Under the pieces are notes generated by a model that saw only the letters and a program-made list of their open reading frames with translations, searched no databases and was not told where the DNA came from. Shown in pieces: positions 19,235 to 60,145 of a DNA stretch of 61,958 nucleotides. Position 1 is the first letter of the stretch; every line of letters starts with the position of its first letter. The position numbers and the translations under genes are program-made. The stretch comes from Emiliania huxleyi CCMP1516. Its lineage: Eukaryota. Where the stretch lies: NCBI RefSeq assembly GCF_000372725.1, contig NW_005202427.1, positions 701,090 through 763,047 of the forward strand. The letters are read 5' to 3'.

Positions 19235-22200
19235 ATGGCCCTGAACGGCCTGACCTGCAACCACTGCGGCGGCACGGACATCGAGCTCGATGCGGCGCGC
19301 GGCGACGCGGTGTGCATCCAGTGCGGTACCGTCCTCGAGGAGAACACTATCGTCAACGAGGTCACCTTTGAGACGTCGGCGGGCGGCGGTTCGGGCGTGG
19401 TTGGCCAGTTCGTCCCGTCCTCCGGGCTCCGCTCGTCGGGCCTGGGCTTCGCCAAGGAGTCGCGCGAGGTCGCCCTTTCCAACGGCAGCGCCACATCTCG
19501 CAGCTCGCAGACGAGACCTGTCCAGGACACGTGCATGACATGTCCGAGACACGCCCCATAGGCCAGCGCCACATCTCGCAGCTCGCCAACGCGCTCCGCC
19601 TGTCCGAGCACCACCAGGACGCAGCCCAGCGCCTCTTCCAGCTCGCCGTGCAGGTGACACTTCCTAGACACTTCCTAGACACTCCCCAGACACTTCCCAG
19701 CTCGCCGTGCAGGCGGGGACACGCTGAGACAGCACACCCGCCCTCCCTCCCCTCCCCTCCCTCCCCACCCCTCGGCCCCACCCTTCCCTCCCGCCGCAGC
19801 ACAACTTCATCCAGGGCCGCAAGACGCAGCACGTGATCGCCGCCTGCCTCTACACCGTCTGCCGGCGAGAGAAGACCGCCCACCTGCTCATCGACTACTC
19901 GGACGTGCTGCAGACAAACGTCTACATGCTCGGCGCGCGCGAGAGATGGGGAGAGGTGGGGAGAGGTGGGGAGAGATGCTGCAGACAAACGTCTAAGGCT
20001 CGGCGCGCGCCTCTCGTCGCGCCGCCGCCGCGCCGCTCCCCCCTCTCACTCGCCCCTCCCCCCACCGCCACCGCGGGAGCGGTGCTTGTGACGGGTCCCC
20101 ACAAATCGGTCTATNNNNNNNNNNNNNNNNNNNNNNNNNNNNNNNNNNNNNNNNNNNNNNNNNNNNNNNNNNNNNNNNNNNNNNNNNNNNNNNNNNNNNN
20201 NNNNNNNNNNNNNNNNNNNNNNNNNNNNNNNNNNNNNNNNNNNNNNNNNNNNNNNNNNNNNNNNNNNNNNNNNNNNNNNNNNNNNNNNNNNNNNNNNNNN
20301 NNNNNNNNNNNNNNNNNNNNNNNNNNNNNNNNNNNNNNNNNNNNNNNNNNNNNNNNNNNNNNNNNNNNNNNNNNNNNNNNNNNNNNNNNNNNNNNNNNNN
20401 NNNNNNNNNNNNNNNNNNNNNNNNNNNNNNNNNNNNNNNNNNNNNNNNNNNNNNNNNNNNNNNNNNNNNNNNNNNNNNNNNNNNNNNNNNNNNNNNNNNN
20501 NNNNNNNNNNNNNNNNNNNNNNNNNNNNNNNNNNNNNNNNNNNNNNNNNNNNNNNNNNNNNNNNNNNNNNNNNNNNNNNNNNNNNNNNNNNNNNNNNNNN
20601 NNNNNNNNNNNNNNNNNNNNNNNNNNNNNNNNNNNNNNNNNNNNNNNNNNNNNNNNNNNNNNNNNNNNNNNNNNNNNNNNNNNNNNNNNNNNNNNNNNNN
20701 NNNNNNNNNNNNNNNNNNNNNNNNNNNNNNNNNNNNNNNNNNNNNNNNNNNNNNNNNNNNNNNNNNNCTCCTCCGCCGCAGCTCCGCGACCACACCGCCC
20801 GCGGAGCCCGAGCCCACACGCTGGATTCGGTACTCTGGAGGTATGGGACTAGCGGCTCCTCCACACGCAGGTCCGCCCTCCGCCTTGTCCAGCGCATGAA
20901 GCGCGACTGGATCCAGACCGGCCGCCGCCCGTCCGGCATCTGCGGCGCCGCCCTCCTCATCGCCGCGCGCATCCACGGCTTCCGCCGCACACAGCGCGAG
21001 GTGCGGCCGCCGGTTCCGCGGAGACACTTCCGAGACACCTCCGAGACACCTCCGAGACACCTCCGAGACATTTCCGACTGCAGCGCCCCCCTAGCTGCCT
21101 CTCCGCAGCCACCTCCCCTCATGTCACACCCTCGGCCACCACCTCCACCTCTCCGGCGCGTCGCCCTCCCCGCAGGACCCAACCCCCCCCCTCCCCTCCC
21201 CCCCCCCCCCTACCCCCTCCTCTCGGCCCCGCAACAGGTTGTGCGCGTCGTCCGCATCTGTGACGTTTCGCTGCGCAAGCGGCTGATTGAGTTTTCAGAC
21301 ACCTCTCTCGGCCAGCTGACCGCGAACCAGCTCGGCGACAACGAGTTTGACCTCGAGTCGTATGGCGCCGCACCCCCCCCCCCTAGAAGCGGAACATCTC
21401 CCCATATCTCCCCACATCTCCCCATATCTCGGGCCCCAGAAGCGGAGCACGCAGTCTTGTCTCCCCACCTCCAAACCAGCGCTCGAGAGGACACGCACTC
21501 CGCGGCACTCGGCCGCATTCACCTGTATGCACCCGTCTTCACCCCCCCCGTCCTCACGCGGTGCTCTGCAGACACTGCACAACACCGCCCTCCCGCCCTC
21601 ACGTCGGCGTACTCGCAACGTCGGCCCCGCGACCACACCGCCTGAGCCCACACACTGGATTCGAGACCCTGGAGGTATGGGACTAGGCGCCGCCGCCGAC
21701 CCGCCCTCGTTCCTGCGCAACCGGCGCGCCGACGAGGCAGAGCGGCGGCTGCTGATGGACCCGGAGGGGGAGGGGTCGCGCCAGCGGCGGGAGGGCGAGA
21801 TCCGGGCACTCAAGATGCCCGCGCTGCGCCGCCGGCTCCTGGCGCTCGGAGAGCCCACCGACGGCGCGCGGCGGCGGCGGGGAGGGAGCGGGGAGGGGGG
21901 GGCTCCCCTTCTTGGCCGTTGGGCCCGGGCCCCAGGCGGGTGGGGGGTTCTCGCGGACGCTTGTCAGGCCCCCCCCCTTCTTCCTTGGCTCTTGCCCCCC
22001 CCGCGTCCTAACCCCCTGCTCCCCCCTTGGCCCGCCCGCCCGCAGGCCGCAAGCGGGAGCTGCTGGCGCGGCTGCTCGAACTGGAGTGCCCAGAGACGGA
22101 GCTGCAGCTGCCGGAGGGCGGCGAGGGCGAGGGCGAGGCGCCGCTGCTGCTCGAGGGTCCGGCCGAGGGAGAGGGAGAGGGAGAGGGCGAAGGTGAGGGA

Positions 22201-38292: not shown

Positions 38293-41200
38293 CTACACCT
38301 GCTCCACCTCTGGCACCTGCTCCAGCTGCGAATCCTCCTCGGTAACGACTGGGTCGGACGTCGTCGAGCCGCGAGGCACGGTAGTGAAGCGCCCGATATT
38401 CGAAAGCGAGTCGCGGATGCTCGAGCGAGCGCTCACCGGGGTTGCGCCCAGAGCCTTGGCCAGCAGCACGAGCGACACCTGTGAGACCGGGGGTGCAAGA
38501 TCAGTCGCTTCAGGAGGCGGGCGCTGTGGCAAAGGTGCCGCCGGGGGAGCGCACCTCATGGTGCAGGCCGGGGAAGCAGGCAATGGCGAGGGCGTTGTAG
38601 AGCCCGGCGTTGATGAGCTCCTGCGGCGGCGGGAAAGGGGGGCATGGAGCGGGCGGGACATAAAAGATCGACCGCTGATCGGCAGCGTTCCTGCGGCGTG
38701 GTCTCAAAAAACTTGGCGAACTCACAGCCGCCGCGGTCGAGGTCGTTCTCGTGCGCCATGACGATCTTCAGCCTGTCCTGGCGCGCCTGCTTGACCTGCT
38801 CGGCCAGCCGCTCGTCGGACCAGGTGTCGGCGTTCAGATAGAGCAGCATGTGCGTGGCGTCGCCCGCCTCCTCGGCGGTGGAGACGGTGAGACCGGAGAA
38901 ATTGGTGGCGAGCTCGGTGGCCAGCTCGTCTGCGCCCTCATCGAACGGCGAGGCCCAGAGCACGACGGACTTGGAGAAGGAGATCGGCTGGCCCTGGACC
39001 TCGCCCGGGATGAAGAGCGGGAGGGAGGTCAGGTTCAGGTAGTGTGGCGAGCAGAGGAGGAGCGCCTGAGGGTAGGTGCGAGGGGGCGGCGGTCAAGGTC
39101 GAGGCGACGGCAGAACAGCTGCAGGGAGTCGTCCGTGGCGGCACCTCGGAGATGATCTTAAGCGAGACACGCTGATACTCGTCGATGCGGTGCCACGTCG
39201 TCTGCGCCCACCCACTGTCAAAGATCTCCGGCTGGAGGACCTCCGGGCACTGTGCTCGCAACTCCTGCAGTCGTGCAGCGACGGTGTGCGTGAGTGAGTG
39301 CTGGCGTGCGGCGGCGGCGGCGACACCGCCCCTCAGAGCCGTGTGTGGCGAGAGCAATCCCCGCAGGGTCATCGAGCTGGGGGCGGGCGGGGAGCGCCTG
39401 CAGCGTCCCGCCGCCCTTGGCCGGGTCCGCCTCTTGCACGAGGACGAGCGGCTTCCTCTTCTCGAGCGACGTCTGAATCTCGCGCAGGCAGTTCTGCAGG
39501 CAAGGAGCGCACGAGTAGTCGTGGGCGACACAGCGAGGCACTCTCGGAAAGGGAGGGGCTGGGGGAGTGCCTTCGAGCGGAAGTAGCCCTTCGACAGGAA
39601 GAAGAGCATGACCTGCGTGCGGTCAACGTAATCCTCCAGCGACCCGATGTCCTTCAAATCGTCCACATCGAGGAAGATCTTGATGCCGGGGATCAAGAGC
39701 TTAAGCTCATTCTTGATGACCGCGACGGCGTCTTGGCCGGTGGACCTATTCGGGGAGTGGCGGGTCGTCTGGCGGGTTCCTACGCCGCGTCTCCCTCTGA
39801 CCACAGGACTGACCAGATGTGCGAGAGGAAGAGGTGCCACGTGAGGCCGTCCACCAGAGCCAGCTCGGGGGGCTGCTTGGTTGAGACGAGGCGAATCGTG
39901 GGGACCTTGGCAAGGCGGCGGATGGCGATGATGGTACCCACGAGAAAGATCAGGAGCGCAGCCGCAGCAAGGACGAGCATCCAGTTCACCAGTCCATTCT
40001 CAGACCTGAAGCCGAGGACGGCGGAGGCCGACTGCCCCGGCTCGTCCCCGGGGAATCGCAACTCGATGTTGAGGAAGATGGTGGTCCAGCTGGCACCGAG
40101 GAAGAGGAGGAGGAGGACGAGGCTGGTGGCCTGCAGTGCGAGCCGCGTCCGTTGGGCTCAGAGTGGACTGCAGTGGCAAGTGCGTGTGTGGGGTGGGTGA
40201 TGGACTGGCGACGGCGATCCAAGCGTGTGCTGAGAGCTGCAGCACAAGCAAGCGCAAAGGGCGTGTGGGATTGGGCGAAGGGCGCACCACGGCGAGGATG
40301 TTGTCCTCGAACCGCTTGTAGGGCTGGACCAGGGCGATCGCGACGGCGTAGCACGAACACACGAGCACCGCCACGACGAGACGAACAAAGGAGTCCTCCT
40401 CCTCGGCAACCAGCAGCACGAAGCCCGTCAGAAAGAGCTTGCGCGCCAGATCGGCCGCCTCCCACCAGTACCAGTTCCTTTTGTACTCCCGGTGAAGGAA
40501 GGCGGTGGCCTTCGTCAGCGCGTTCGGCGACTTGGCCTGCAGCGGCTTGTAGCATGCGAGAAGAAGGGCCGAGTAGAGGACTAGCGAGCCGACCGGCCAG
40601 ATGACGACGAAGCCGATGGCGAGTCTCGTGATGGAGTCGTGCTCGTCGGTGCCGCACTCGACGCTCGCGTCCTGCCGCATGTACTCGACCAGAGCGAGCG
40701 TCTCGCCCGGCGCAGAGGTGGTGTAGCCCTGCGCACGCACATCGACACAGCTAAGGGTTTTTTTGGGGGGGGGAGGGGGGGGGCTTGTTTGTTAGTTGTG
40801 GCTAGCACCTGGCACGACCACGCGCGCAAGATCGTGGCGCTCACAGACGGCACGAAGAGAAAGATGAGCACGAGACCCGCCGGCGTGAGGTCGAGGAGGC
40901 CGAGCGCCACCTCTGCAGGCCATGAAAAGACCGCCGCATCGTCAGTTTCGGCCAGCGCCGTCGGTGGCTCCGCAGCTGAAGACGATGGTGGCTCCTGCAG
41001 CTGTGCTTCGCCACCGAGAACGTTGCTTGTCGCGCCGTCGACCTCGGAGCCGCTCTCGCAGCCAGCCCCTCGCCGAGCACGCCGCCAGCGAGCACAGAGC
41101 CGCAAGACAATGCCAGCAAAGAGGAGCAGCGCGATGACGCCGATGGGAGAGATCGCGACGGCGACGAGCCGGGACTTGTGCGGCAGGCACTGCACCGGCA

Positions 41201-44200
41201 GCACGATGCCCGACCAGTCGATGAAGACGGCTTCGGCCAGCGCCTCCGTCCAGCCCGTGTACCGTTCCGGCAGCCGCGCCGAGTAGGTGGTGGAGAGGAC
41301 GAGGCAGACCTGGTAGAAGCCAAACAAGATCTTGAACTTGGGGATGAGGCCGATTTTGTAAATCGCGTCACCGGTGCGGTCGGCGATGCGCAAGGGAAGT
41401 CCGATGAAGCGCTCCTTCCTCCACTCGGTTTGCCCGCGCTGAACTGAGTACGCCAACGCCACGAGGCCAAACGCGACGCAGAGGCCGAGGGCGGTGCCCG
41501 CCATGCGCCCCGCCGCCGTGCCGACAGCGACGCACTCGTTGCAGGCGGCGCCGTCGGCGTCCAGGTAGTGGTTCGGCTCGCGGCAGAGCTGGCACTCGGG
41601 GCCGGCGAAGGCGTCTGCGCAGTAGTCCAAGCCGGCCTCCTGCACCCTCCGACCGCTAGCCTCTCCCGGATCAACATTGCCGACACACCGCGCCTGGCCC
41701 GCCTGGCCATCCCCTCCAAAGGCGCGGCACTCTGTGAGCTCGGCGCTGGAGAAGCTGGCGCGCCAGAAGCCGGGCGGGATGCCGAGGGTCTCGAGGGTCG
41801 TGCCGACCGGGCACGCGGCGTCCGATGGGCATGGCTTGCAGTAGTCGGTCGGGGAGGAGAAGACGTCGGCCGGGTCGGCGCTCGCCTTCAGGTAGAATCC
41901 CGCCTTGCAGACGGAGCAGGTGACGCTGCCAGTGCCGCTAGCAAGAGGGTAGGGGCAGGGGATGCACTCGCCCTGGCCCTCGTTGGCGGAGTAAGTGTCG
42001 GCAGCGCACTCGTCGCAGGAAGAGCTGCCGGCGCCGGAGGACGTGCCGCGAGGGCACCTCTCGCAGATGCTCTGTCCGGCGAGGGCGGTGAAGGTGCCTG
42101 GCGCGCAGTCGATGGCGTCATCAGAGCCGGTCGGGCAAAACGTGCCGGCCGGACAGGTGATGCAGTCGTCCTTGCTCGTCATGAGGTCGAGGGAGGCGTT
42201 GATGCGCGTCCCGGCGGGGCAGGGAAGCGGCGCAGAGGCGCCCTCGGCGCAGTAATGGCCCGGCACGCACGCGATGCAGTTGGTGGCGCCGCTCGAGTCC
42301 TGATATTCGCCGGCGGGGCACTTCTGGCAGATGCTCCGTCCGGCGAGGGCGGTGAAGGTGCCCGGCGCGCAGTCGATGGCGTCATCAGAGCCGGTCGGGC
42401 AAAACGTGCCGGCCGGACAGGTGATGCAGTCGTCCTTGCTCGTCATGAGGTCGAGGGAGGCGTTGATGCGCGTCCCGGCGGGGCAGGGCAGCGGCGCAGA
42501 GGCGCCCTCGGCGCAGTAATGGCCCGGCACGCACGCGATGCAGTTGGTGGCGCCGCTCGAGTCCTGAGATTCGCCGGCGGGGCACCTCTGGCAGATGCCC
42601 TGTCTGGCGAGCGCGGTGAAGGTGCCCGGCGAGCACGGCGTCTGCTCGGTGGAGCCGGTGGTGGCGAAGTAGCCCGGCGAGGCGTCGGTGCACTCGCTCG
42701 CGTCGGAGAGGTTGGTGGCGCTCGAGTAGCTGCCAGCCTCGCACGGCAGCGCCGCCGCCGCGCCAACAGCGCAGTAGCCGCCCGCCTCGCACGGCTTGCA
42801 CGCCGTCTGCGCCTCCGCGTCCTGGTACGTGCCGCCGGCGCAGGGCGTGCACTCGCCCTGCCTGGTCTCGTTCGTGTACGACCCCTTGGTGCACGCCGTC
42901 TGCTCGGTGGAGCCGGTGGTGGCGAAGTAGCCCGGCGAGGCGTCGGTGCACTCGCTCGCGGCGGAGAGGTTGGTGGCGCGCGAGTAGCTGCCCGCAACGC
43001 ACGGCAGCGGCGCCGACGCGCCCTCGGCGCAGTAGCTGCCCTCCACGCACGGAAGGCAGCCCGTCGCGTTCGACTCGCCCTGGTACGTCCCGCCCGCACA
43101 GCTGGCGCACTCGGAGAGGCCGGCCGTGGCGGCGAAAGAGCCCGGCGAGCACTCGGAGGGCGGCGCCGCCCCGCCGCCGCACGACGAGCCGGCGGGGCAG
43201 GGAAGGCACTCGGGGTCGCCGCTCCGGTCGGTCAGCCTGGCGTACGTGCCCGCCTCGCACTGCGCGTCCAGCTCGCGCGACGACCCCACCGGGCAAAACT
43301 TGCCGGGAGCGCAGCGGACGCAGGCAGCGGCGGCGGGCTCGCTCTGGTAGTAGCCCTGGCCGCACAGCTCGCAGGCCTCGCTGCGCGCCTTGGCGGCGAA
43401 GCTACCCTCGCGACACGGCGTCTGCTCTGTGGAGCCGGTGGTGGCAAAGTGGCCCGGCGAGGCGTCGACGCACTGCGAGGCGGCGGTGAGGTCCGTCTTG
43501 TCCGAGTAGGTACCCGCGTCGCAAGGCAGTGGCGCCGACGCGCCCTTGGCGCAGTACCGTCCCTTCTCGCAGTCGCGGCAGGACGTCGCGCCCGTGTCGT
43601 TCTGGTAACGGCCCGCAGGGCAGTCCGTGCACTCACTCAGCCCGGGCTCGCCGCCAAACGTCCCAGCACGGCAGCTCGCGCAGGTCTCGCTGCTGTTTGC
43701 GCCGGTGATCGGGCTAGAGGTACCGGGGGGGCACTTCTGACAGGCATCTGGTGAGCTGCTGCCGATCTTCTCGTTGTACCTCCCCGCAGGGCAGGGTGTG
43801 AAGCCGCCACCGCAGTCATCTGTAGCCTTGCAGTATCCACCCGCTTCACACGTGTCGCATGCCGTCTGTCCGCGCTCCGCCTGGAACTCGCCAGCAGGGC
43901 ACTGCATGCACGCAGCCTGGCCGGTGAGGTTCTGGTACTGCCCTGCGGCACAGTCGAGGGGCTGGATGGTGCCTGCATTCGGGCAGAAGCGTCCCGCGGG
44001 GCAGTCGGTGCAGCTGGTGGCATTGAGCTGATCGGCGAACGTGCCGGGAGGACACTCGTCGCAGGGACGGTCCGTGCCGGCTGTGGACTGGCTCGTCCCC
44101 GGAGAGCAAGGGAGGCACGACTCGGCACTGGCTGCGCCAATCACGGGCATGTAGAAACCCGGAGCACACGGGAGCGGTTCCGCGGTGCCCTTGGGACAAA

Positions 44201-46743
44201 AGTGGCCTCGCTTACACGCACCATCGCAGGAGGAGTTGGTGAGGCCGCTCCTGTTCCCATAGTAGCCAGCAGGGCAGAGGTTGCACTCGGGGACGCTGAA
44301 GTCGCCAAAAAAGGAGCCCTTGCGCGGCATCCAGCTGCCCAAGCGGCAGTCCCAGTTTATCGGCGAGATGACTACTGCCTGTATCGTGGCACCGTCGTTG
44401 TCGTCGCCAGCGGTGTTGCCGGTGAAGGAGGCGGCGCTGATCGAGGGGCGTTGGCGGAGTCCGTCCAGGTACAGCACCGAGCCGGACATTCCCGCTCTGT
44501 TGTCGATGAAGTCGACACCCGCGATGGAGAGGGACTCGCTGTTCGTCGCGTAGACGACGCCGCCCTCCTTCTGTTGCGAGGAGAGAGCGGGGTGAGGCAG
44601 CCGTGGCCCTCTACATTTCTCGCCCCGCTGCCGTGCGGCGCTGCAGGAGTGCGGCTAGCTCTACGCGGCGCACATTAGCAGAGCAGCCCGTCACGGCCGA
44701 GCCGATTATCGAGACCGCACCGCTGACATACGCGTGGACGACGCCGCCTTTCTGCGGTTGCGAGGAGAGAGCGGGGTGAGGCAGCCGTGGCCCTCTCCAT
44801 CCCTCGCCCCGCTACCGTGCGGCGCTGCTGGAGGGAGGCTAGCTCTACGCGGCGCACCCAAGCAGAGCAGCCCGATACGGTCGAGCCGCTTATCGAGACC
44901 GACCCGCTGTTCTGAACCGTGTCGACGACGCCGCCGTGCTGCGGTTGCGAGGAGAGAGCGGGGTGAGGCAGCCGTGGCCCTCTCTATCTCTCGCCCCGCT
45001 ACCGTGCGTTGCTGCTGGAGGCCGGCTAGCTCTACGCGGCGCACAGTGCCAGCCGAGCAGCCTGTAACGTTCGAGCTGGTTATCGAGACCGCACCGCTGC
45101 TAGACGCGAGGACGACGCCGCCGCCCTGCGGTTGCGAGGAGAGAGCGGGGTGAGGCAGCCGTGGCCCTCTCCATCTCCCGCCCCGCTACCGTGCGGCGCT
45201 GCTGGAGTGCGGCTAGCTCTACGCGGCGCACGTATTCAGCAGAGCAGTCCCTCACATCCGAGTCGATTATCGAGACCGCACCGCTGACATACGCGTAGAC
45301 GACGCCGCCGGACTGCGGTTGCGAGGAGAGATCGGGGTGTGAGGCAGTGGCCCTCTCCATCTCTCGCCCCGCTGCCATGAGGGGCTGCAGGGAGGCGGCT
45401 AGCTCTACGCGGCGCACATAGCCAGCCGAGCAGTCTCTGACCGTCGAGTCGATGATCTCGACGTCACCTGCGCCGTCCGCGTACACAACGCCGCCGTAGT
45501 CCCCCATCCCGTTGACGAGGTTCAGCCCCCGCAGGGTGAGGCTGCAGCCGCCCGAGAGGTCAAAGAGCCCGATCTGTCCCCGGCCGTCGAGCGTCGCGCC
45601 CTCGCCGCTGCTCGCGACGGTCACCTTGATGTCGGAGGAGCAGCTGATCTGGCTGCCCAGCTTGAAGTCTGCCCTGGGCGGCAGGTAGATTGAGACGTCG
45701 GCTTGCGAAACAGCAGCCTCCGCGATCAGGGAGCGGAGCTTAGCCTCGCTCGACGCGGCGACAAAGTCCGGGGAGAGCGGCGGCAGAGGCGACAGAGGCG
45801 GCGGCGACGGAGAGGACGGAGAGGACGGTGGGAGGGGGGCGAGGATGAACGTTTTGCTGGTGCCGGAGGATCCGGAGTCGAGCGTGAACGTATAGCCCGC
45901 ACCCTTCCACTCGTTGCCGGTCCAGCCGTCGTCGTACGAGTCGTACATGTCGAGCGTGCACTCGCCGGGCGGCGCGGACAGGGTGCGAGAGTAGGGGGCC
46001 CCTCCACTGCCGATCAACGCGCCGCTGCACACCAGAGTCCACGACACCTCGGACGGGTAGCTGCCGCCACCCACAGTGACCTGGAAGTCGATTGAGCCAG
46101 ACGTGTGGTCTGATGGTGCACATGCCAGTGGGAGCAGCGCGGCGAGAATCAGCAGCCACGCGCCACGCCTCGCCCCCGTCCGGCACCGCACGAGGCGCCC
46201 CGAGCTGCTCCTCCGCACCGAGGGCAGCACGCCGCCGCACGCTCCGAGCAGCACGAACAAGGCGGCCCAAAACTGACAGCGCTGCTGGGTGCGGACGGGC
46301 GCGGAAGAGGAGGGTCCGCTCATGAAGGGAAAGTGGAACGGGGAGGGCAGGTCGATGGAGAGCTTGTCGACCGGCGCGTTCGCGGGCGGCTTGTCGGTCT
46401 TGGAGCGCTCGTCGGTGAGTGCGTGGTGAGGCTCCGCATGCCACGCAACGGGGGCGGCGCAGCGTGGCTGCCGGTCGGCGCACACACGTGAGACGGAGGA
46501 GATATCGGACTGGACCGAGTTCGAATCGGAGATCTGAGCGGCACGGACCTCTGCAGGCCATGCCGGCTCCGCGTGAGCGTCGGCGGACCGCATCTCGGGC
46601 GACGTGCCGTTCACGGGCAGGACGGTTTCGCGAACGATGATCCCCGATCTGCTGCTGTAGACGGGACCGATAGAGTCGATCTCGGGCTCGCCCTTGCGCT
46701 CCATGGTGTTGCGCGAGGCCGGGGCGGTCTCCAAATCGGCCAC
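38293..46743 (-). CDS. giant multi-pass receptor: beta-helix (GGVVY) repeats + Cys-rich GCC2/ephrin-receptor-like repeats + ~9 TM + two TIR-like domains
   Basis: Many CPAGxY/C repeats; TM block with WYWWE..RK..QPY..N; TIR1 WHLFLSHIW..IFLDVDDL..LFFLSKGYFRSK|NCLREI; TIR2-like HMLLYLNADTW..IVMAHEND. Splice sites are consistent. Confidence 0.85.
42068..42600. repeat. 264-bp (88-aa) in-frame tandem duplication in the Cys-rich stalk
   Basis: Near-identical sequence at offset 264 (e.g. 42121 vs 42385). Confidence 0.92.
44571..45417 (-). repeat. tandem exon-intron array (5 near-identical ~105-bp introns, 4 internal 78-81-nt exons)
   Basis: Introns at 44571-44673, 44752-44857, 44939-45044, 45126-45231 and 45313-45417. 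All start GTGCGCCGCGTAGAGCTAGCC and end ...CTCCTCGCAAC(CGC)AG. Confidence 0.9.
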
Positions 46744-46821
46744 AACCTACACGCCAACAACAGGCACAATCCGGAACCGGATTACAAAGCTCGCACATAG
46801 AAACAGCCAGAGGGGCGCTCA

Positions 46822-48259
46822 CCGGCTGCTTCTCGTAAAGGTCCTTGACGGACGCCGGCGGCTCGCCAATTAGGTGCAACGGCTCGCCCACCGCCTCTTT
46901 GATCGCTTCCATCAGTGCTTCCCACGAGGGCCCGTCCTCGTGTCCGCCCTGAACGGCGCGCGGGCTGTTAGTCGCGAGCTTGCGGATACTAGCACGCGCG
47001 AGCGAGCGCGCACCGGGTGGTTGGCGGGCGCGCTGTCCGACGACACGATGGCTGCAAACGAGCTGGTGTCGTTGCCGCCAACCTCGCAGAATCCGTTGGG
47101 CGATGCCGGCGTGAACGGCTTCGCGACGGTTGCGGGAGGCGATGTCGGCCACGGGGAGTCGTACCGCTGCGAGGAGAGAAGCGCGGAGGTGGCAGAGCAC
47201 GAGGAGTGCGCAAACGCGGCTCCGAGGCAGATCAGCGCGAGGATGCCAAAGAGGCGGAGCAAGTTGTAGGACTTTGACCACGGGAACCGGCCGGCGGCAG
47301 AGCCCTCGGGCGTGGTATTCGTGGTCGTCTCGACGTCGACCGTCGCGCCCTGAACAAGAGGGCGCGAGACTGGCCGTGTGAGAGCGGCGAGCGAGGGAGG
47401 AGGCCGCATAAATGCAGGCGGCGCGCACCGAGTCTGCGGTCGGCGGCGTGGAGCCGCCGGTCACCTTGCCGGTGCCACCGAGGATGCCCTCGTTGCCGTC
47501 CGTTCCGAGCAGGGCCCCGAACCTGTTCTTGCCGCCGACCGGGGTGATGCTCTTGGTGCGGACGATCGGGGCGGACGCGCCCTTGCGCCCGTTCTTGCGG
47601 CGCGGGTTCGACGGGGTGGTCCAGTCGGCGATGCCCTGCGCGCGCGCAAACGGTGGGTGCGTCATAGTTGGGGCTCCGCGTGTGCACCGCAGCGTGCGAG
47701 CCGAGGCGCACCGAAGGGGCGGGCTCCTCCGCTGGAAACTCCTTGGTCGACGGCAGCGTCTCGCCGCCGGCCGCCGCCGGCTTGACAGCCGTGGCAACTT
47801 TGGCGACCGGCTCGAGCGCCGGGCCGTTCTTGGTGACGCCGTTGGGGGCCGTCGGTGGGTCGGTCGAGCGCGCGAGCTTGGACCAGAAATCGGCGTTCGC
47901 GCTCGGCGTGTGGGCGGAAAACATGGCCTTGGCCCGGTCCGAGTCGACAGTCTCCGCGGCGGTCGCCCCTTCCGCGGCCAGATCTTGCTTGAGGATGCTC
48001 TCGTCGAGGGCGGTCGCCGCGCCGGACACGGCCACGGTGTCGTCCTCAACGGGTGCGTTCTTGGCGCCGCTCGCCTGTCGGCGAGGGAGAATGGGGAGCG
48101 TGCTGGGAGAAGGGTGGAGATCTGCGACAGCAAGCGCACACGCAGCGCCTTGGCTACGAGGGGCGGAGGCGACTTCGGCGCGGAGAAGAAGACGACCTTG
48201 ATGCTGCCGTCTTCGGCCGGCATGATGCGGGCCTTCACTTCCGTCTTGTTCTCTGACAT
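46822..48259 (-). CDS. upstream exons (low-complexity N-terminus with a TM helix), probably spliced to the receptor gene
   Basis: MSENKTEVKARIMP... and later segments in different frames are bounded by GT/GC..AG. The last one, KDLYEKQP|gtgagc, can join tag|GTT GTG GCC GAT near 46746. Confidence 0.5.
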
Positions 48260-49401
48260 GTTGTTGATCAAGTTCACTCGTACCTATGATCGGGGTGTGT
48301 GTGATATTCACGCTCGGGCGCCGGGGGGAGGGGGGCGCTCCAAATTTAGGTCAAATTCCGTCAATTAAAATTAATTGACGAAACTTGATGACAATCTCGG
48401 GCAATCTCGGGTGGCGCATCAGAACGAGCGATAGAGCGCCTCCACAAAGAGGTGCGGAAGTGTCATACCGGTCTCGGAAGCGATCTCGGGTAATCTCGGC
48501 GGGCAATTATTAAGCTAATTGACGAAATCTCGGGGTGATCTCGTCAATTTAGTCAATTTGTGACCAGTCAATCTCGCCCCAGGGCAGATCCACGAATTTC
48601 GTCAAAGTTCCGTCAATTATGTCAATTGACGAAATCTCGGCTCAATCTCGCTCAATCTCGGCTAATCTCCTGCTCTGATTGCTGCACATCGTGTTCCGGG
48701 CCACCAGTGCTGCTTCTCTCTGCTCCGAGAGCGTCTTTGAGGGGGGGAATCGAGAGGAAGGGGGGCTCAAGAGGGCCGCACCTACTCGCAGCGCACGCAG
48801 CTTGAGGCCCGGCACCAAGGACACCGCGGCACGCCCGTCTCGCCCACGTTGTTTTGGATCTGCGAGAGCGCAGGAGGCGGCGAGCGAGCGTCAGAAGCAT
48901 AAAATGGGACGAGCACGGCGCGGGCTTGTTTTGGGGGTCGCGGGGGCGCAGTAGGCATGAAGGCGCTTCGCGGCTGCGCGCTGGGCCGTCGCTCTGCCCG
49001 CGATCCGGGTGTGCGCCAGATTCGTGTCGCTCGAGCCTCGGAACGAGCCGCGCGCGGGGCGTTTGCAGCAAGGGGGGCACTGGCACGAGCGCGCTGCAGC
49101 GCATGGGATGGGGGGCGAAGCGGCCGGGCACGCTCGCGCAAAGGCCAACACGCGCCGCGTCGCGCGGGGCGCGGGGAGAGGGAGGGACTGGGGAAACCTG
49201 AAACTCCGTCGTCTGATCGAAGGGTGTCCGTCTAACGTGCAGTATCCAGGCGCCGTGGCATCGTTGAGCTTCGGTGTGGAAAACATTCGCAACAATCTCG
49301 AGGTGGATATCCTTTGGCGGCGTTGGGTAGCGAGGATTGATGTGACAAAGTGAAGGGCATGCCCTGCCAACCGACCTTGACCTGCTGTGAGGGGTTTGAG
49401 T

Positions 49402-49521
49402 GACCCGAAAGATGGTGAACTATGCCTGGGTAGGGTGAAGCCAGAGGAAACTCTGGTGGAGGCTCGTAGCGATACTGACGTGCAAATCGTTCGTCGAATC
49501 TGGGTATAGGGGCGAAAGACT

Positions 49522-49557
<36 letters not shown>

Positions 49558-49849
49558 CCCTCAGGATAGCTTGAACGCAACGGTTTTGTCAGGTAAAGCG
49601 AATGATTAGAGGCCTGTGGGCTGAAACAGCTTGCACCTATTCTCAAACTTCAAATGGGCAAGAGGTCCGGGATGCTTGAGTGATCCCGGGCGGCGAACGG
49701 CGCGTTCAAAGTGGGCCATTTTTGGTAAGCAGAACTGGCGATGCGGGATGAACCGAACGCCGCGCTAAGGTACCCAAGTGTCCTCTCATCAGATACCACA
49801 AAAGGCGTTGGTACCTCCAGACAGCAGGACGGTGGCCATGGAAGTCGGA

Positions 49850-49886
<37 letters not shown>

Positions 49887-50126
49887 GTACTAGCCCTGAA
49901 AATGGATGGCGCTCAAGCGGACCACCGATGCGCGGCCGCCGGCGCGAGCGCGAGGCGCCGGCGAGTAGGAGGGCGCGGGGCTCGCGGCGCAGCCTTGGGC
50001 GCGAGCCTGGGTGAAGCGGGCCCCGGTGCAGATCTTGGTGGTAGTAGCAAATATTCAAATGAGAACTTTGAAGACTGAAGTGGAGAAAGGTTCCGTGTGA
50101 ACAGCAGTTGGACACGGGTGAGCCGA
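49402..50126 (+). rRNA. isolated 28S (LSU) rRNA gene fragment
   Basis: Universal LSU motifs GACCCGAAAGATGGTGAACTATGC, GGTAAGCAGAACTGGCGATG and GCAGATCTTGGTGGTAGTAG. It ends abruptly at GGGTGAGCCGA, and there is no other rDNA in the window. Confidence 0.95.
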
Positions 50127-50509
50127 CGATCAAGCGTCCCGAGCGGCGAGAACTCGAATGACAGTAGCTCGCCCAGCGCGTCGAAGGCCTTGAGCCGAAT
50201 GGCGCAGGCGATCGGGTGATGGCAGCATGACGTCGGGTTCTCATCCGCGACCTTCGTCTTGGGCGCCCTCTTCTTCTTGCCGCCTGCTGCGCCGAGTGCT
50301 GCTGCTGTTGCCGATTCCTCGCAGCGGCTCGCGAGCGCTCCACCTCCTTGCGCACGCGCTTGCTCTCCGCCGCCCTCCGCTTGTGGAACTCGCGGAACTC
50401 GCGCTCCATCCGACTCTGGCCTCGTCCTCTCCCTCTGCCGCGCTCCCGTGGCCCGGTGCCTCATCCGCCTGACCCGCGGCATCCTCGTCGTGCTCGGAGA
50501 GCATCCAGG

Positions 50510-58548: not shown

Positions 58549-60145
58549 TCAATCCCGACTCCGGAGCCCCTCCCTTCCCCAATCCACGGACGCGTCCCAA
58601 CTCGAGGCGCGGGCCCGCGTGGTGCCCGTGAAGCTGCGGCTGCGCCTGAGCCGCAGCCCCATCCGCACGGCGTCCACCCCCTTCCGCACGGCGTCGGCCC
58701 TCCTCCCAGACGCCTCCTTGAGCTCGCCAATGATCTCCGACAGCCGTCGCGCCGTCGCGTCAAAGTGGCGTGGCGTGCCCGTCTTGGTGCCGGCCGAGGC
58801 GACACGTCGAGGGCCAGCCGAGCGCGGGTCGCCGGCCAAGTCAGCGAGGTCGAAGACGACGCACCTCGGGTCGCCTCGCTCGCGCAGCTCCCGCTTCCAC
58901 CGCGCCAGCTCCTAAGATTGTCGGGGGCAGGGTTGGTGAAGAGACGCCGCCCGCACGCCCAAGCTGGTCCGGGCGGTGGGCCTCGGTGGCGTGGATGTAG
59001 CCAAGCCTCTGGATCTCGGAGAGGGCGGCGTACTGCAGCAGCCCAAAGTTCTGGACGGCCGGCCGCAGGTAGAGGTCGGCGTGCACGTCGCGCGCCTCGT
59101 CGCGCTGCCACTGAGCGGGGTCTCGAACCGGGCGGGGTCAAGGAGAGCAGGGTTGTCGAGTCGCGGGGCGCGGGGCGTCTCTGTCGGCGCTCTGCCGTCT
59201 CTCTGTCGGCGCTCTGGGGAGGGGCGGGCGGTCATAGCCGCCTCGGACGAGACAAAGGCCAGCTGCGACGCGATGGCCGCCATCGACGGCACGTCGCCCG
59301 GCGCCTGCTCGCCGGCGATCCACGCGCGCAGCCGGCGGAGGAGGAAGGAGAGGCCGCCCAGCGAGGCGCCGTAGTTGGGCGAGAGGAAGGGCGTCTCGGA
59401 GCGCACGTCGACGGCGATGATGGTCGACGCGCCTAATTAGTAACTAACACTAATTAAACATTAATTAACACTAATTAATTAATTAGCGACGATGGTCGAC
59501 GCGCCGAGCTCCCGGCGCATCACGTCGGCGGGCAGGTTATTGACGTAGCCGCCGTCGCAGAGCAGATGCACGACCTCAGTGCCGTGCTCGTCGACAATCG
59601 CGTCGCAGACGGGTGNNNNNNNNNNNNNNNNNNNNNNNNNNNNNNNNNNNNNNNNNNNNNNNNNNNNNNNNNNNNNNNNNNNNNNNNNNNNNNNNNNNNN
59701 NNNNNNNNNNNNNNNNNNNNNNNNNNNNNNNNNNNNNNNNNNNNNNNNNNNNNNNNNNNNNNNNNNNNNNNNNNNNNNNNNNNNNNNNNNNNNNNNNNNN
59801 NNNNNNNNNNNNNNNNNNNNNNNNNNNNNNNNNNNNNNNNNNNNNNNNNNNNNNNNNNNNNNNNNNNNNNNNNNNNNNNNNNNNNNNNNNNNNNNNNNNN
59901 NNNNNNNNNNNNNNNNNNNNNNNAGGGGCCGTTAGGGACCACCGAGGTGCGGGGGGGGGCGGCCGTTCGGTGTAGAGTGGCAGCTTGAGGGCGAGGCGCT
60001 ATCAGGTCGTAAAGCGCCCGCGCGCTTGCGAATGCGCGGCAGAACAACGGAAGCGGGGACAACCCCCGCGTCCCCGAAAGGTGAATAGCAGGAAGGCCCC
60101 GCCTCGCCCCCTCAGCCACAACGACACGCGACCCGCAGACTCCCC

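What the first reader, a model, noticed from the sequence alone, without database searches (positions are those of the whole stretch)
44490..45510. Variable phase-0 cassette exons between near-identical introns in a TIR receptor ectodomain
Seen: four internal exons (44674-44751, 44858-44938, 45045-45125, 45232-45312; 78 or 81 nt, all phase 0) each encode one beta-helix-like rung. In gene order they read SGGVVYAYVSGAVSIIDSDVRDCSAEY, GGGVVLASSSGAVSITSSNVTGCSAGT, HGGVVDTVQNSGSVSISGSTVSGCSAW and KGGVVHAYVSGAVSIIGSAVTGCSAN. The framework (GGVV, VSI..S.V..CSA) is fixed and the other positions vary. By eye, the five flanking introns are more alike than the exons, the reverse of normal. Inference: conserved introns serve as recombination handles or allow exon skipping, so ligand-binding rungs can be shuffled, analogous to LRR exon shuffling described in brown algae. 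Together with the TIR output this is a candidate diversifying immune-receptor system in an alga.
Basis: partly seen in the sequence, partly recalled or inferred. Interest (0 to 1): 0.88.

Follow-up and report, generated by a model that had tools for sequence, protein, structure and literature searches.

The report
Shuffled-rung receptor family in Emiliania alga
A gene of the bloom-forming alga Emiliania huxleyi, one of at least 25 related gene models, encodes each turn of a predicted surface binding domain on its own small exon; the turns differ in number and at four key residues from gene to gene, which likely gives the alga a fast-changing set of immune-type receptors.

Summary
The array is real. 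Four phase-0 exons (78-81 nt) lie between five GT-AG introns that are 91% alike; the exons are 77% alike. The window matches E. huxleyi CCMP1516. The gene predicts a beta-helix, Cys-rich repeats, seven membrane helices and a TIR domain. It is one of a family: 25 of 27 named CCMP1516 models retrieved carry such rungs (66 rungs, 65 different). Two models identical at 778 of 779 residues downstream have 6 versus 2 rungs. The intron recurs in 15 metagenome loci, always beside rung exons. RNA contigs of relatives join rung to rung in frame (10 of 10 tested). One correction: the introns are not unusually conserved. They diverge like silent exon sites (0.09 vs 0.10), while four codons per rung are near saturation (0.75). 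These positions likely line the binding groove. Best reading: a receptor family diversified by unit duplication, unequal crossover, short conversion and probably selection, like fungal NWD repeats and brown-algal LRR exons but on a new scaffold. Not shown: exon skipping, immune role, ligand, this gene's own transcript. A recombination test was negative, and selection could not be separated from rate hot spots.

The parts
38293..46704 (-). Predicted 14-exon gene, 2381 aa from the first ATG at 46704; the true start is uncertain (ATG at 46324 is an alternative)
   Evidence: Open frame without stops after joining the predicted exons in a script; phases and splice sites
45418..46704 (-). Exon 0: hydrophobic N-terminal stretch, small N-terminal domain, Pro-rich linker, beta-helix N-cap and first rung
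   Evidence: no Pfam hit; homologues
45313..45417 (-). Array intron I1 (105 nt, GT-AG, phase 0)
45232..45312 (-). Rung exon E1 (81 nt)
45126..45231 (-). Array intron I2 (106 nt); 98% identical to an intron of locus L009
45045..45125 (-). Rung exon E2 (81 nt)
44939..45044 (-). Array intron I3 (106 nt)
44858..44938 (-). Rung exon E3 (81 nt; one extra loop codon)
44752..44857 (-). Array intron I4 (106 nt)
44674..44751 (-). Rung exon E4 (78 nt)
44571..44673 (-). Array intron I5 (103 nt)
40809..44570 (-). Large exon: last beta-helix rungs, Cys-rich Ephrin_rec_like repeats (14 stretches), first membrane helices
   Evidence: Pfam PF07699 E 3.7e-52; hydropathy
39921..41504 (-). Seven predicted membrane helices (model residues 1559-2007), over three exons; coordinates approximate
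   Evidence: Kyte-Doolittle windows; weak TRP match E 0.078, below cut-off
39145..39839 (-). TIR domain, split over four exons; coordinates approximate
   Evidence: 70% and 69% identical over 135 aa to P0030 and P0053, which match TIR_2 at E 3.8e-6 and 1.6e-7

Best explanation
This is one member of an Emiliania huxleyi multigene family in which each rung of a predicted extracellular beta-helix is a separate phase-0 exon, and rung number and four residues per rung vary between genes, likely through duplication, unequal crossover and short gene conversion of the 187-base exon-plus-intron unit plus selection for new residues, giving likely non-self receptors that would signal through seven predicted membrane helices and a TIR domain. 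Shown: the array, the family, the four hypervariable codons, variable rung number in gene models, splicing in relatives. Predicted: the fold, and that positions 1, 6, 8 and 9 (plus the variable exon tails) line one sheet and its two flanking loops. Inferred: the recombination mechanism, selection, ligand binding and an immune role. Phase 0 means any gain or loss of a unit keeps the frame. The exon junction falls in a predicted groove loop, so a new neighbour also makes a new loop.
For: Family: 25 of 27 named CCMP1516 models retrieved have rungs, 1-6 detected per model, 66 rungs, 65 distinct, 62 distinct four-residue sets, 8 with a TIR. P0049 and P0059 match at 778 of 779 residues downstream of the array but have 6 versus 2 internal rungs; rung 2 of P0059 equals rung 2 of P0049 except at positions 8-9, which match rung 6. 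15 of 15 metagenome loci with the intron motif have it beside rung exons; 25 of 26 parsed internal exons are multiples of 3 (duplicate locus L008 left out). Divergence at codon positions 1+2 of sites 1, 6, 8, 9 is 0.61-0.75 against 0.09-0.19 in introns and 0.10-0.16 at silent framework sites. Between units paired by nearest intron those codons show 104 amino-acid changes and 1 silent change in 124 comparisons; 42 of 42 rungs have a different four-residue set. M2a beats M1a (LRT 76 and 101). Mean intron distance within loci equals that between loci (0.187 vs 0.185; permutation p=0.52). RNA: run X14 has zero depth in 8 of 8 intron-only bins; 10 of 10 short joints tested link rung to rung in frame. 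Model pLDDT 86, right-handed beta-helix matches Z 16.6 and 16.2.
Against: PHI test gave no recombination signal in 12 of 12 settings (p 0.11-1.0). A model with fast sites at omega=1 fits better than M2a on both trees (lnL -1228.1 vs -1234.0; -1272.2 vs -1278.9), so selection is not separated from hot spots or multi-base conversion. Introns do cluster partly by locus (nearest neighbour in the same locus 9 of 27, expected 8.6%), and the tree is mostly unresolved. P0049/P0059 is protein-model evidence only; gene calling or assembly collapse could contribute, and some 'paralogues' may be alleles. RNA contigs are from wild relatives, none spans the array, and runs X10 and X13 also cover introns. 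No atomic coordinates were available, so the one-face claim rests on strand order. None of 18 family model numbers searched in the virus-resistance study's supplement gave a true rung-family hit (21 numbers tried in all; the one match, cogent12692_i1, has a different TIR and four helices).
Confidence: 0.68

Rival explanations
1. The rung exons are alternatively spliced cassettes, or are rearranged within clonal lines, so that one gene yields many receptors (Dscam-like, or as reported for brown-algal ROCO LRR exons).
For: All exons are phase 0 with near-identical splice signals. RNA joints exist that link the exon-0 rung directly to an E4-like rung (44748 to 45421 in X11, 44752 to 45420 in X10). 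Splice variants are reported for Ectocarpus ROCO genes (PMC11378527, section 15).
Against: Those joints come from wild populations and fit paralogues with fewer rungs equally well. Introns are short (103-106 nt). Intron retention exceeded exon skipping in all but one species of a survey that included E. huxleyi (PMC6142364, passage). UniRef proteins P0004/P0009 show a retained intron rather than skipping.
Confidence: 0.13
2. The array is a minisatellite-like expansion under relaxed constraint: framework residues are conserved for folding, and surface codons drift or are overwritten by conversion without selection. The proteins could be adhesins or general sensors with no immune role.
For: The omega=1 hot-site model fits better than M2a. 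The same gene has other recent internal duplications (264 bp at 258 of 264 identity). No ligand or infection response is shown for a rung-family gene.
Against: Neutral drift cannot by itself make four codons diverge 3-8 times more than adjacent introns and silent sites. Codon pairs that keep the amino acid at those sites show an ordinary silent rate (38 of 251 vs 534 of 4036). The sites are the same across 14 loci.
Confidence: 0.15
3. The near-identical introns are mobile introns (Introner-type elements) that inserted repeatedly.
For: Near-identical short introns; very many matching contigs in two runs of organism A (1381 and 1409 laid).
Against: All five window copies lie in the array and no other full copy is in the 62 kb. 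In 15 of 15 loci the intron sits at the same point between rungs. No terminal inverted repeat or target duplication is evident on inspection.
Confidence: 0.04

Closest known systems
Podospora anserina nwd gene family (het-d, het-e, het-r) and other fungal NLRs with shuffling WD/ANK/TPR repeats (PMC4986451, passages read)
   Same: Repeat-number polymorphism, exchange within and between family members, four diversifying positions per repeat mapping to the binding surface, a TIR-related effector in some members.
   Different: Here the repeat is a predicted extracellular beta-helix rung on a seven-helix membrane protein with a C-terminal TIR and no NOD domain. Each repeat is its own exon. Rungs are less alike (14-19 of 26-27 residues) than the 85% rule for those repeats.
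Ectocarpus ROCO LRR and NB-ARC-TPR exon shuffling (PMC3341825, passages; PMC11378527, abstract and section 15)
   Same: One ligand-binding repeat per same-phase exon, multigene family, near-identical loci that differ mainly in the repeat domain, variable residues on one face.
   Different: Different repeat (beta-helix, phase 0, 78-81 nt vs LRR, phase 2, 72 nt), membrane receptor with TIR instead of cytosolic ROC-COR/NB-ARC, short homogeneous introns, no inverted orphan copy in the window, different lineage.
G. huxleyi TIR genes responding to EhV infection (PMC12489294, passages, section 20, Tables S2, S5, S7, S8, S9 in part)
   Same: Same species. Several have multiple membrane helices before a TIR of the same subfamily: cogent2074_i1 matches the window TIR at about 49 of 82 residues and cogent9830_i1 appears to start with a similar N-cap (both compared by eye).
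   Different: The main text has no occurrence of 'exon' or 'polymorphic' and describes no rung array. No listed gene was shown to be a rung-family member; its nucleotide cells are cut in the copy held.
PMP-like right-handed beta-helices (Pfam Chlam_PMP, Beta_helix; Acinetobacter Rhombotarget A; PL6 lyases)
   Same: Fold: Z 16.2 (rmsd 2.4, 181 aligned) to 9cdu and Z 16.6 (rmsd 2.3, 181 aligned) to 7dmk. Distant sequence relatives carry Chlam_PMP.
   Different: The rungs here do not hit Chlam_PMP. Shared fold shows no function; identities are 13-16%.

Membership tests
Brown-algal exon-shuffling receptors (ROCO-LRR, NB-ARC-TPR) | One repeat per exon, all introns in one phase | tested here: met
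Brown-algal exon-shuffling receptors (ROCO-LRR, NB-ARC-TPR) | LRR or TPR repeats with ROC-COR or NB-ARC | tested here: not met
   No such Pfam hit in the six window pieces or in the paralogues scanned; fold is a beta-helix
Brown-algal exon-shuffling receptors (ROCO-LRR, NB-ARC-TPR) | Alternative splicing of repeat exons | not testable with these tools
   Only short contigs of mixed populations were available
Fungal NWD-type shuffling repeats | A few diversifying positions per repeat | tested here: inconclusive
   Four hypervariable sites; M2a significant but the hot-site model fits better
Fungal NWD-type shuffling repeats | Repeat-number polymorphism between near-identical copies | tested here: met
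   6 vs 2 rungs with 778 of 779 identity downstream; protein models only
Fungal NWD-type shuffling repeats | Exchange of repeats within and between genes | tested here: inconclusive
   Mosaic rung in P0059 and equal within/between distances, but PHI negative
Fungal NWD-type shuffling repeats | NACHT/NB-ARC domain and WD/ANK/TPR repeats above 85% internal identity | tested here: not met
TIR domain (Pfam TIR_2) | Profile match above the curated cut-off | tested here: inconclusive
   Single window exons gave no hit; P0053 (69% identical over the TIR) scores 32.3 against cut-off 28, P0030 (70%) 27.8
TIR domain (Pfam TIR_2) | NAD+-cleaving activity via the conserved Glu | not testable with these tools
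   A Glu is present in the CLRE motif; its catalytic role is recalled and consistent with PMC12489294 section 20
Right-handed parallel beta-helix | Three-sheet helical fold | tested here: met
   Predicted model pLDDT 86.3; 154 chains at Z 8 or more, top rows all beta-helices
Chlam_PMP repeat family | Pfam PF02415 match | tested here: not met
   No hit for P0012 or P0034; Atlas score 0.86 is a lead only
Introner-type mobile introns | Copies inserted at unrelated sites | tested here: not met
   5 of 5 window copies and 15 of 15 loci are beside rung exons; the whole genome was not available

The most novel reading that the evidence does not exclude
E. huxleyi carries an anticipatory receptor repertoire: rung exons are re-assorted within clonal lineages (by mitotic unequal crossover or splicing) fast enough to change virus or bacterium recognition during a bloom, and signal through a seven-helix TIR enzyme.
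Probability: 0.15. Interest if true: 0.95.

Novelty: new variant of a known kind. Interest (0 to 1): 0.76.

Why it matters
E. huxleyi blooms end by viral lysis, strains differ in resistance, and TIR genes were recently tied to that resistance, but no variable recognition module is described in the papers I could search. This family offers one: dozens of loci, a modular groove with four hypervariable sites per rung, and a TIR output. It makes strain-by-virus specificity testable by genotyping rung arrays. It also adds a third scaffold (after LRR/TPR exons and fungal WD/ANK/TPR repeats) on which repeat-shuffling receptors arose.

Tried and rejected
No whole genome was held, so genome-wide intron counts were not possible. 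The intron motif was absent from viral contigs (0 matches). My first exon comparison lacked the E3 gap and understated exon identity (redone). My first site-model fit did not converge (redone, where the 'both free' fit on the intron+exon tree also stuck in a poorer optimum). PHI found no recombination. Summed contig depth was not used as copy number, and joints in X1 and X7 were not read as alleles because paralogues map at 82% likeness. The apparent link to virus resistance through cogent12692_i1 (best hit EMIHUDRAFT_110524) was rejected: different TIR, four helices. Foldseek gave no match at E 0.001 or better. The Atlas gave leads under 0.9 only. A diversity-generating retroelement was considered and set aside on inspection, as the variable codons change at all four bases; no reverse transcriptase was searched for. 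Three look-ups of earlier scan findings returned nothing. Literature searches that found no description of this array; the library lacks most subscription papers, and bioRxiv supplements are closed.

Full report
Observation. The region is a 187-base tandem array of 4.7 copies. Introns average 0.907 identity and exons 0.771. The gene's other eight introns average 0.46. Read without splicing, no frame stays open across the array.

Source and gene. The window matches the named record EMIHUDRAFT_199605 of Emiliania huxleyi CCMP1516 at about 100% in long segments. That model calls the same four exons but fuses upstream DNA and stops early. My 14-exon model gives 2381 residues without a stop: N-terminal region, beta-helix, Ephrin_rec_like repeats (E 3.7e-52), seven hydrophobic helices and a TIR region 69-70% identical to paralogues that match Pfam TIR_2. 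Single TIR exons of the window gave no Pfam hit. The start codon is uncertain.

Splicing. In polyA run X14 all 8 intron-only bins have zero depth while exon bins are covered; X11 is near zero there (0-4.2); X10 and X13 cover introns too. Of 12 joints listed with their letters (47 more not shown), I tested the 10 short ones and all 10 join rung to rung in frame with no intron. These contigs are from wild relatives, so they show splicing in the family, not this gene's transcript. P0034, a continuous 232-residue ORF on a 1037-base contig, has consecutive rungs with no intron translation.

Family. Among 27 named CCMP1516 models retrieved carry rungs: 66 internal rungs, 65 different, 8 models with a TIR in two subgroups (62-70% and 39% identity to the window TIR). 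N-terminal domains differ (MAM, CUB, LamG, Kringle). These are lower bounds and depend on gene models; some may be alleles. An exact 20-base intron motif found 15 metagenome loci from two assemblies (L004 and L008 are the same locus). In all 15 the intron lies beside rung exons, with one to eight or more internal rungs. Odd units include a double rung without an intron (L014), long rungs with a doubled first half (L006, L007) and a rung with a stop (L015). Of 142 further representatives from a search of 1.84 billion proteins, 1 matched the close rung pattern; more distant ones carry Chlam_PMP or Beta_helix, some with Ephrin repeats and TIR (19 proteins scanned).

What varies. In 51 aligned rungs, positions 1, 6, 8 and 9 take 13-15 amino acids each, while G2, G3, S18 and C23 are invariant. 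For the 31 rungs with a parsed upstream intron, divergence is 0.187 within and 0.185 between loci for introns, 0.156 and 0.140 for fourfold framework sites, and 0.61 and 0.64 for first and second bases of the four sites; in the window 0.093, 0.104 and 0.75. So the introns behave like silent sequence of young units. The anomaly is in four codons. Silent sites may themselves be held by codon bias, so this does not prove the introns are free of constraint; their ends are better kept than their middle (0.96, 0.84, 0.93).

Selection. My own codon models favour a class with omega above 1 over M1a (LRT 76 and 101; sites 1 and 8, plus 6 and 9 on one tree), but a class of fast sites with omega=1 fits better. 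Between units paired by nearest intron, the four sites show 104 replacements and 1 silent change, and 79 of those 105 codons differ at two or three bases. This fits selection, codon-scale conversion, or both.

Recombination. P0049 and P0059, on scaffolds of different length, are identical at 778 of 779 aligned residues after the array, yet have 6 and 2 internal rungs; the second rung of P0059 is P0049's rung 2 with positions 8-9 of rung 6. Window intron I2 is closer to an intron of L009 (98%) than to its own neighbours. Against this, PHI gave no signal in 12 of 12 settings, introns cluster partly by locus, and only 1 of 28 inner branches is well supported. I could not see the DNA of P0049/P0059.

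Structure. The predicted model of the rung region has pLDDT 86 with three strands per rung and aligns to right-handed beta-helices (Z 16.6 PL6 lyase, Z 16.2 Rhombotarget A). From the strand order, with the two-residue turn between the second and third strand, the VYAY strand would be sheet PB1, sites 6 and 8 would point outward on it, site 9 would start loop T1, and site 1 and the exon tail would form loop T3. This assignment is my inference from recalled nomenclature; no coordinates were returned. PB1 with T1 and T3 forms the binding groove in GH28 beta-helices (PMC8952511, passages).

Comparison. It works most like the Podospora nwd repeats (PMC4986451, passages) and is built most like Ectocarpus ROCO LRR exons (PMC3341825, passages; PMC11378527, abstract and section 15). 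It belongs to neither family. The virus-resistance study (PMC12489294; passages, section 20, supplement rows) lists multi-helix TIR genes of the same TIR subfamily by my by-eye comparison, but no rung array; its sequence cells are cut in the copy held, so a hidden member is possible. Six searches found no description of the array. PMC6142364 was read in passages; Rhombotarget A papers were seen as a listing only.

Verdict. Real, family-wide and apparently undescribed. A diversifying receptor family is well supported; the mechanism (germline unit recombination with selection) is likely; an immune role is plausible but untested; exon skipping and within-clone rearrangement remain open.

Noticed in passing
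window 49297-50182: Partial eukaryotic LSU rRNA (model positions 665-1888 of 3401, E 7.8e-215) about 2.6 kb upstream of the gene.
   Followed up: no
window 46800-48100: The DNA upstream of the gene is shared with the loci of P0019 and P0030 (up to 96% protein-level identity in their fused models), suggesting that family members are copied with over 1 kb of upstream sequence.
   Followed up: partly
window 42052-43113: Recent duplications inside the large exon: 264 bases at 96% and 258 bases at 85% in the Cys-rich repeats.
   Followed up: partly
window 39570, 39397, 38690: The predicted TIR-region introns use GC, GC and GA donors.
   Followed up: no
window 45232-45312: Rung E1 looks mosaic: its first half matches E4 and its second half resembles the exon-0 rung.
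   Followed up: partly
L014, L006, L007, L015: A 165-nt double rung lacking the intron (L014), 129- and 126-nt rungs with a doubled first half (L006, L007), and a rung with an in-frame stop (L015).
   Followed up: no
P0056 and P0060: 97% identical over 146 residues after the array but sharing no rung (4 vs 2 detected).
   Followed up: no
window 20115-20767 and 59616-59923: Assembly gaps (runs of N), outside the gene.
   Followed up: no
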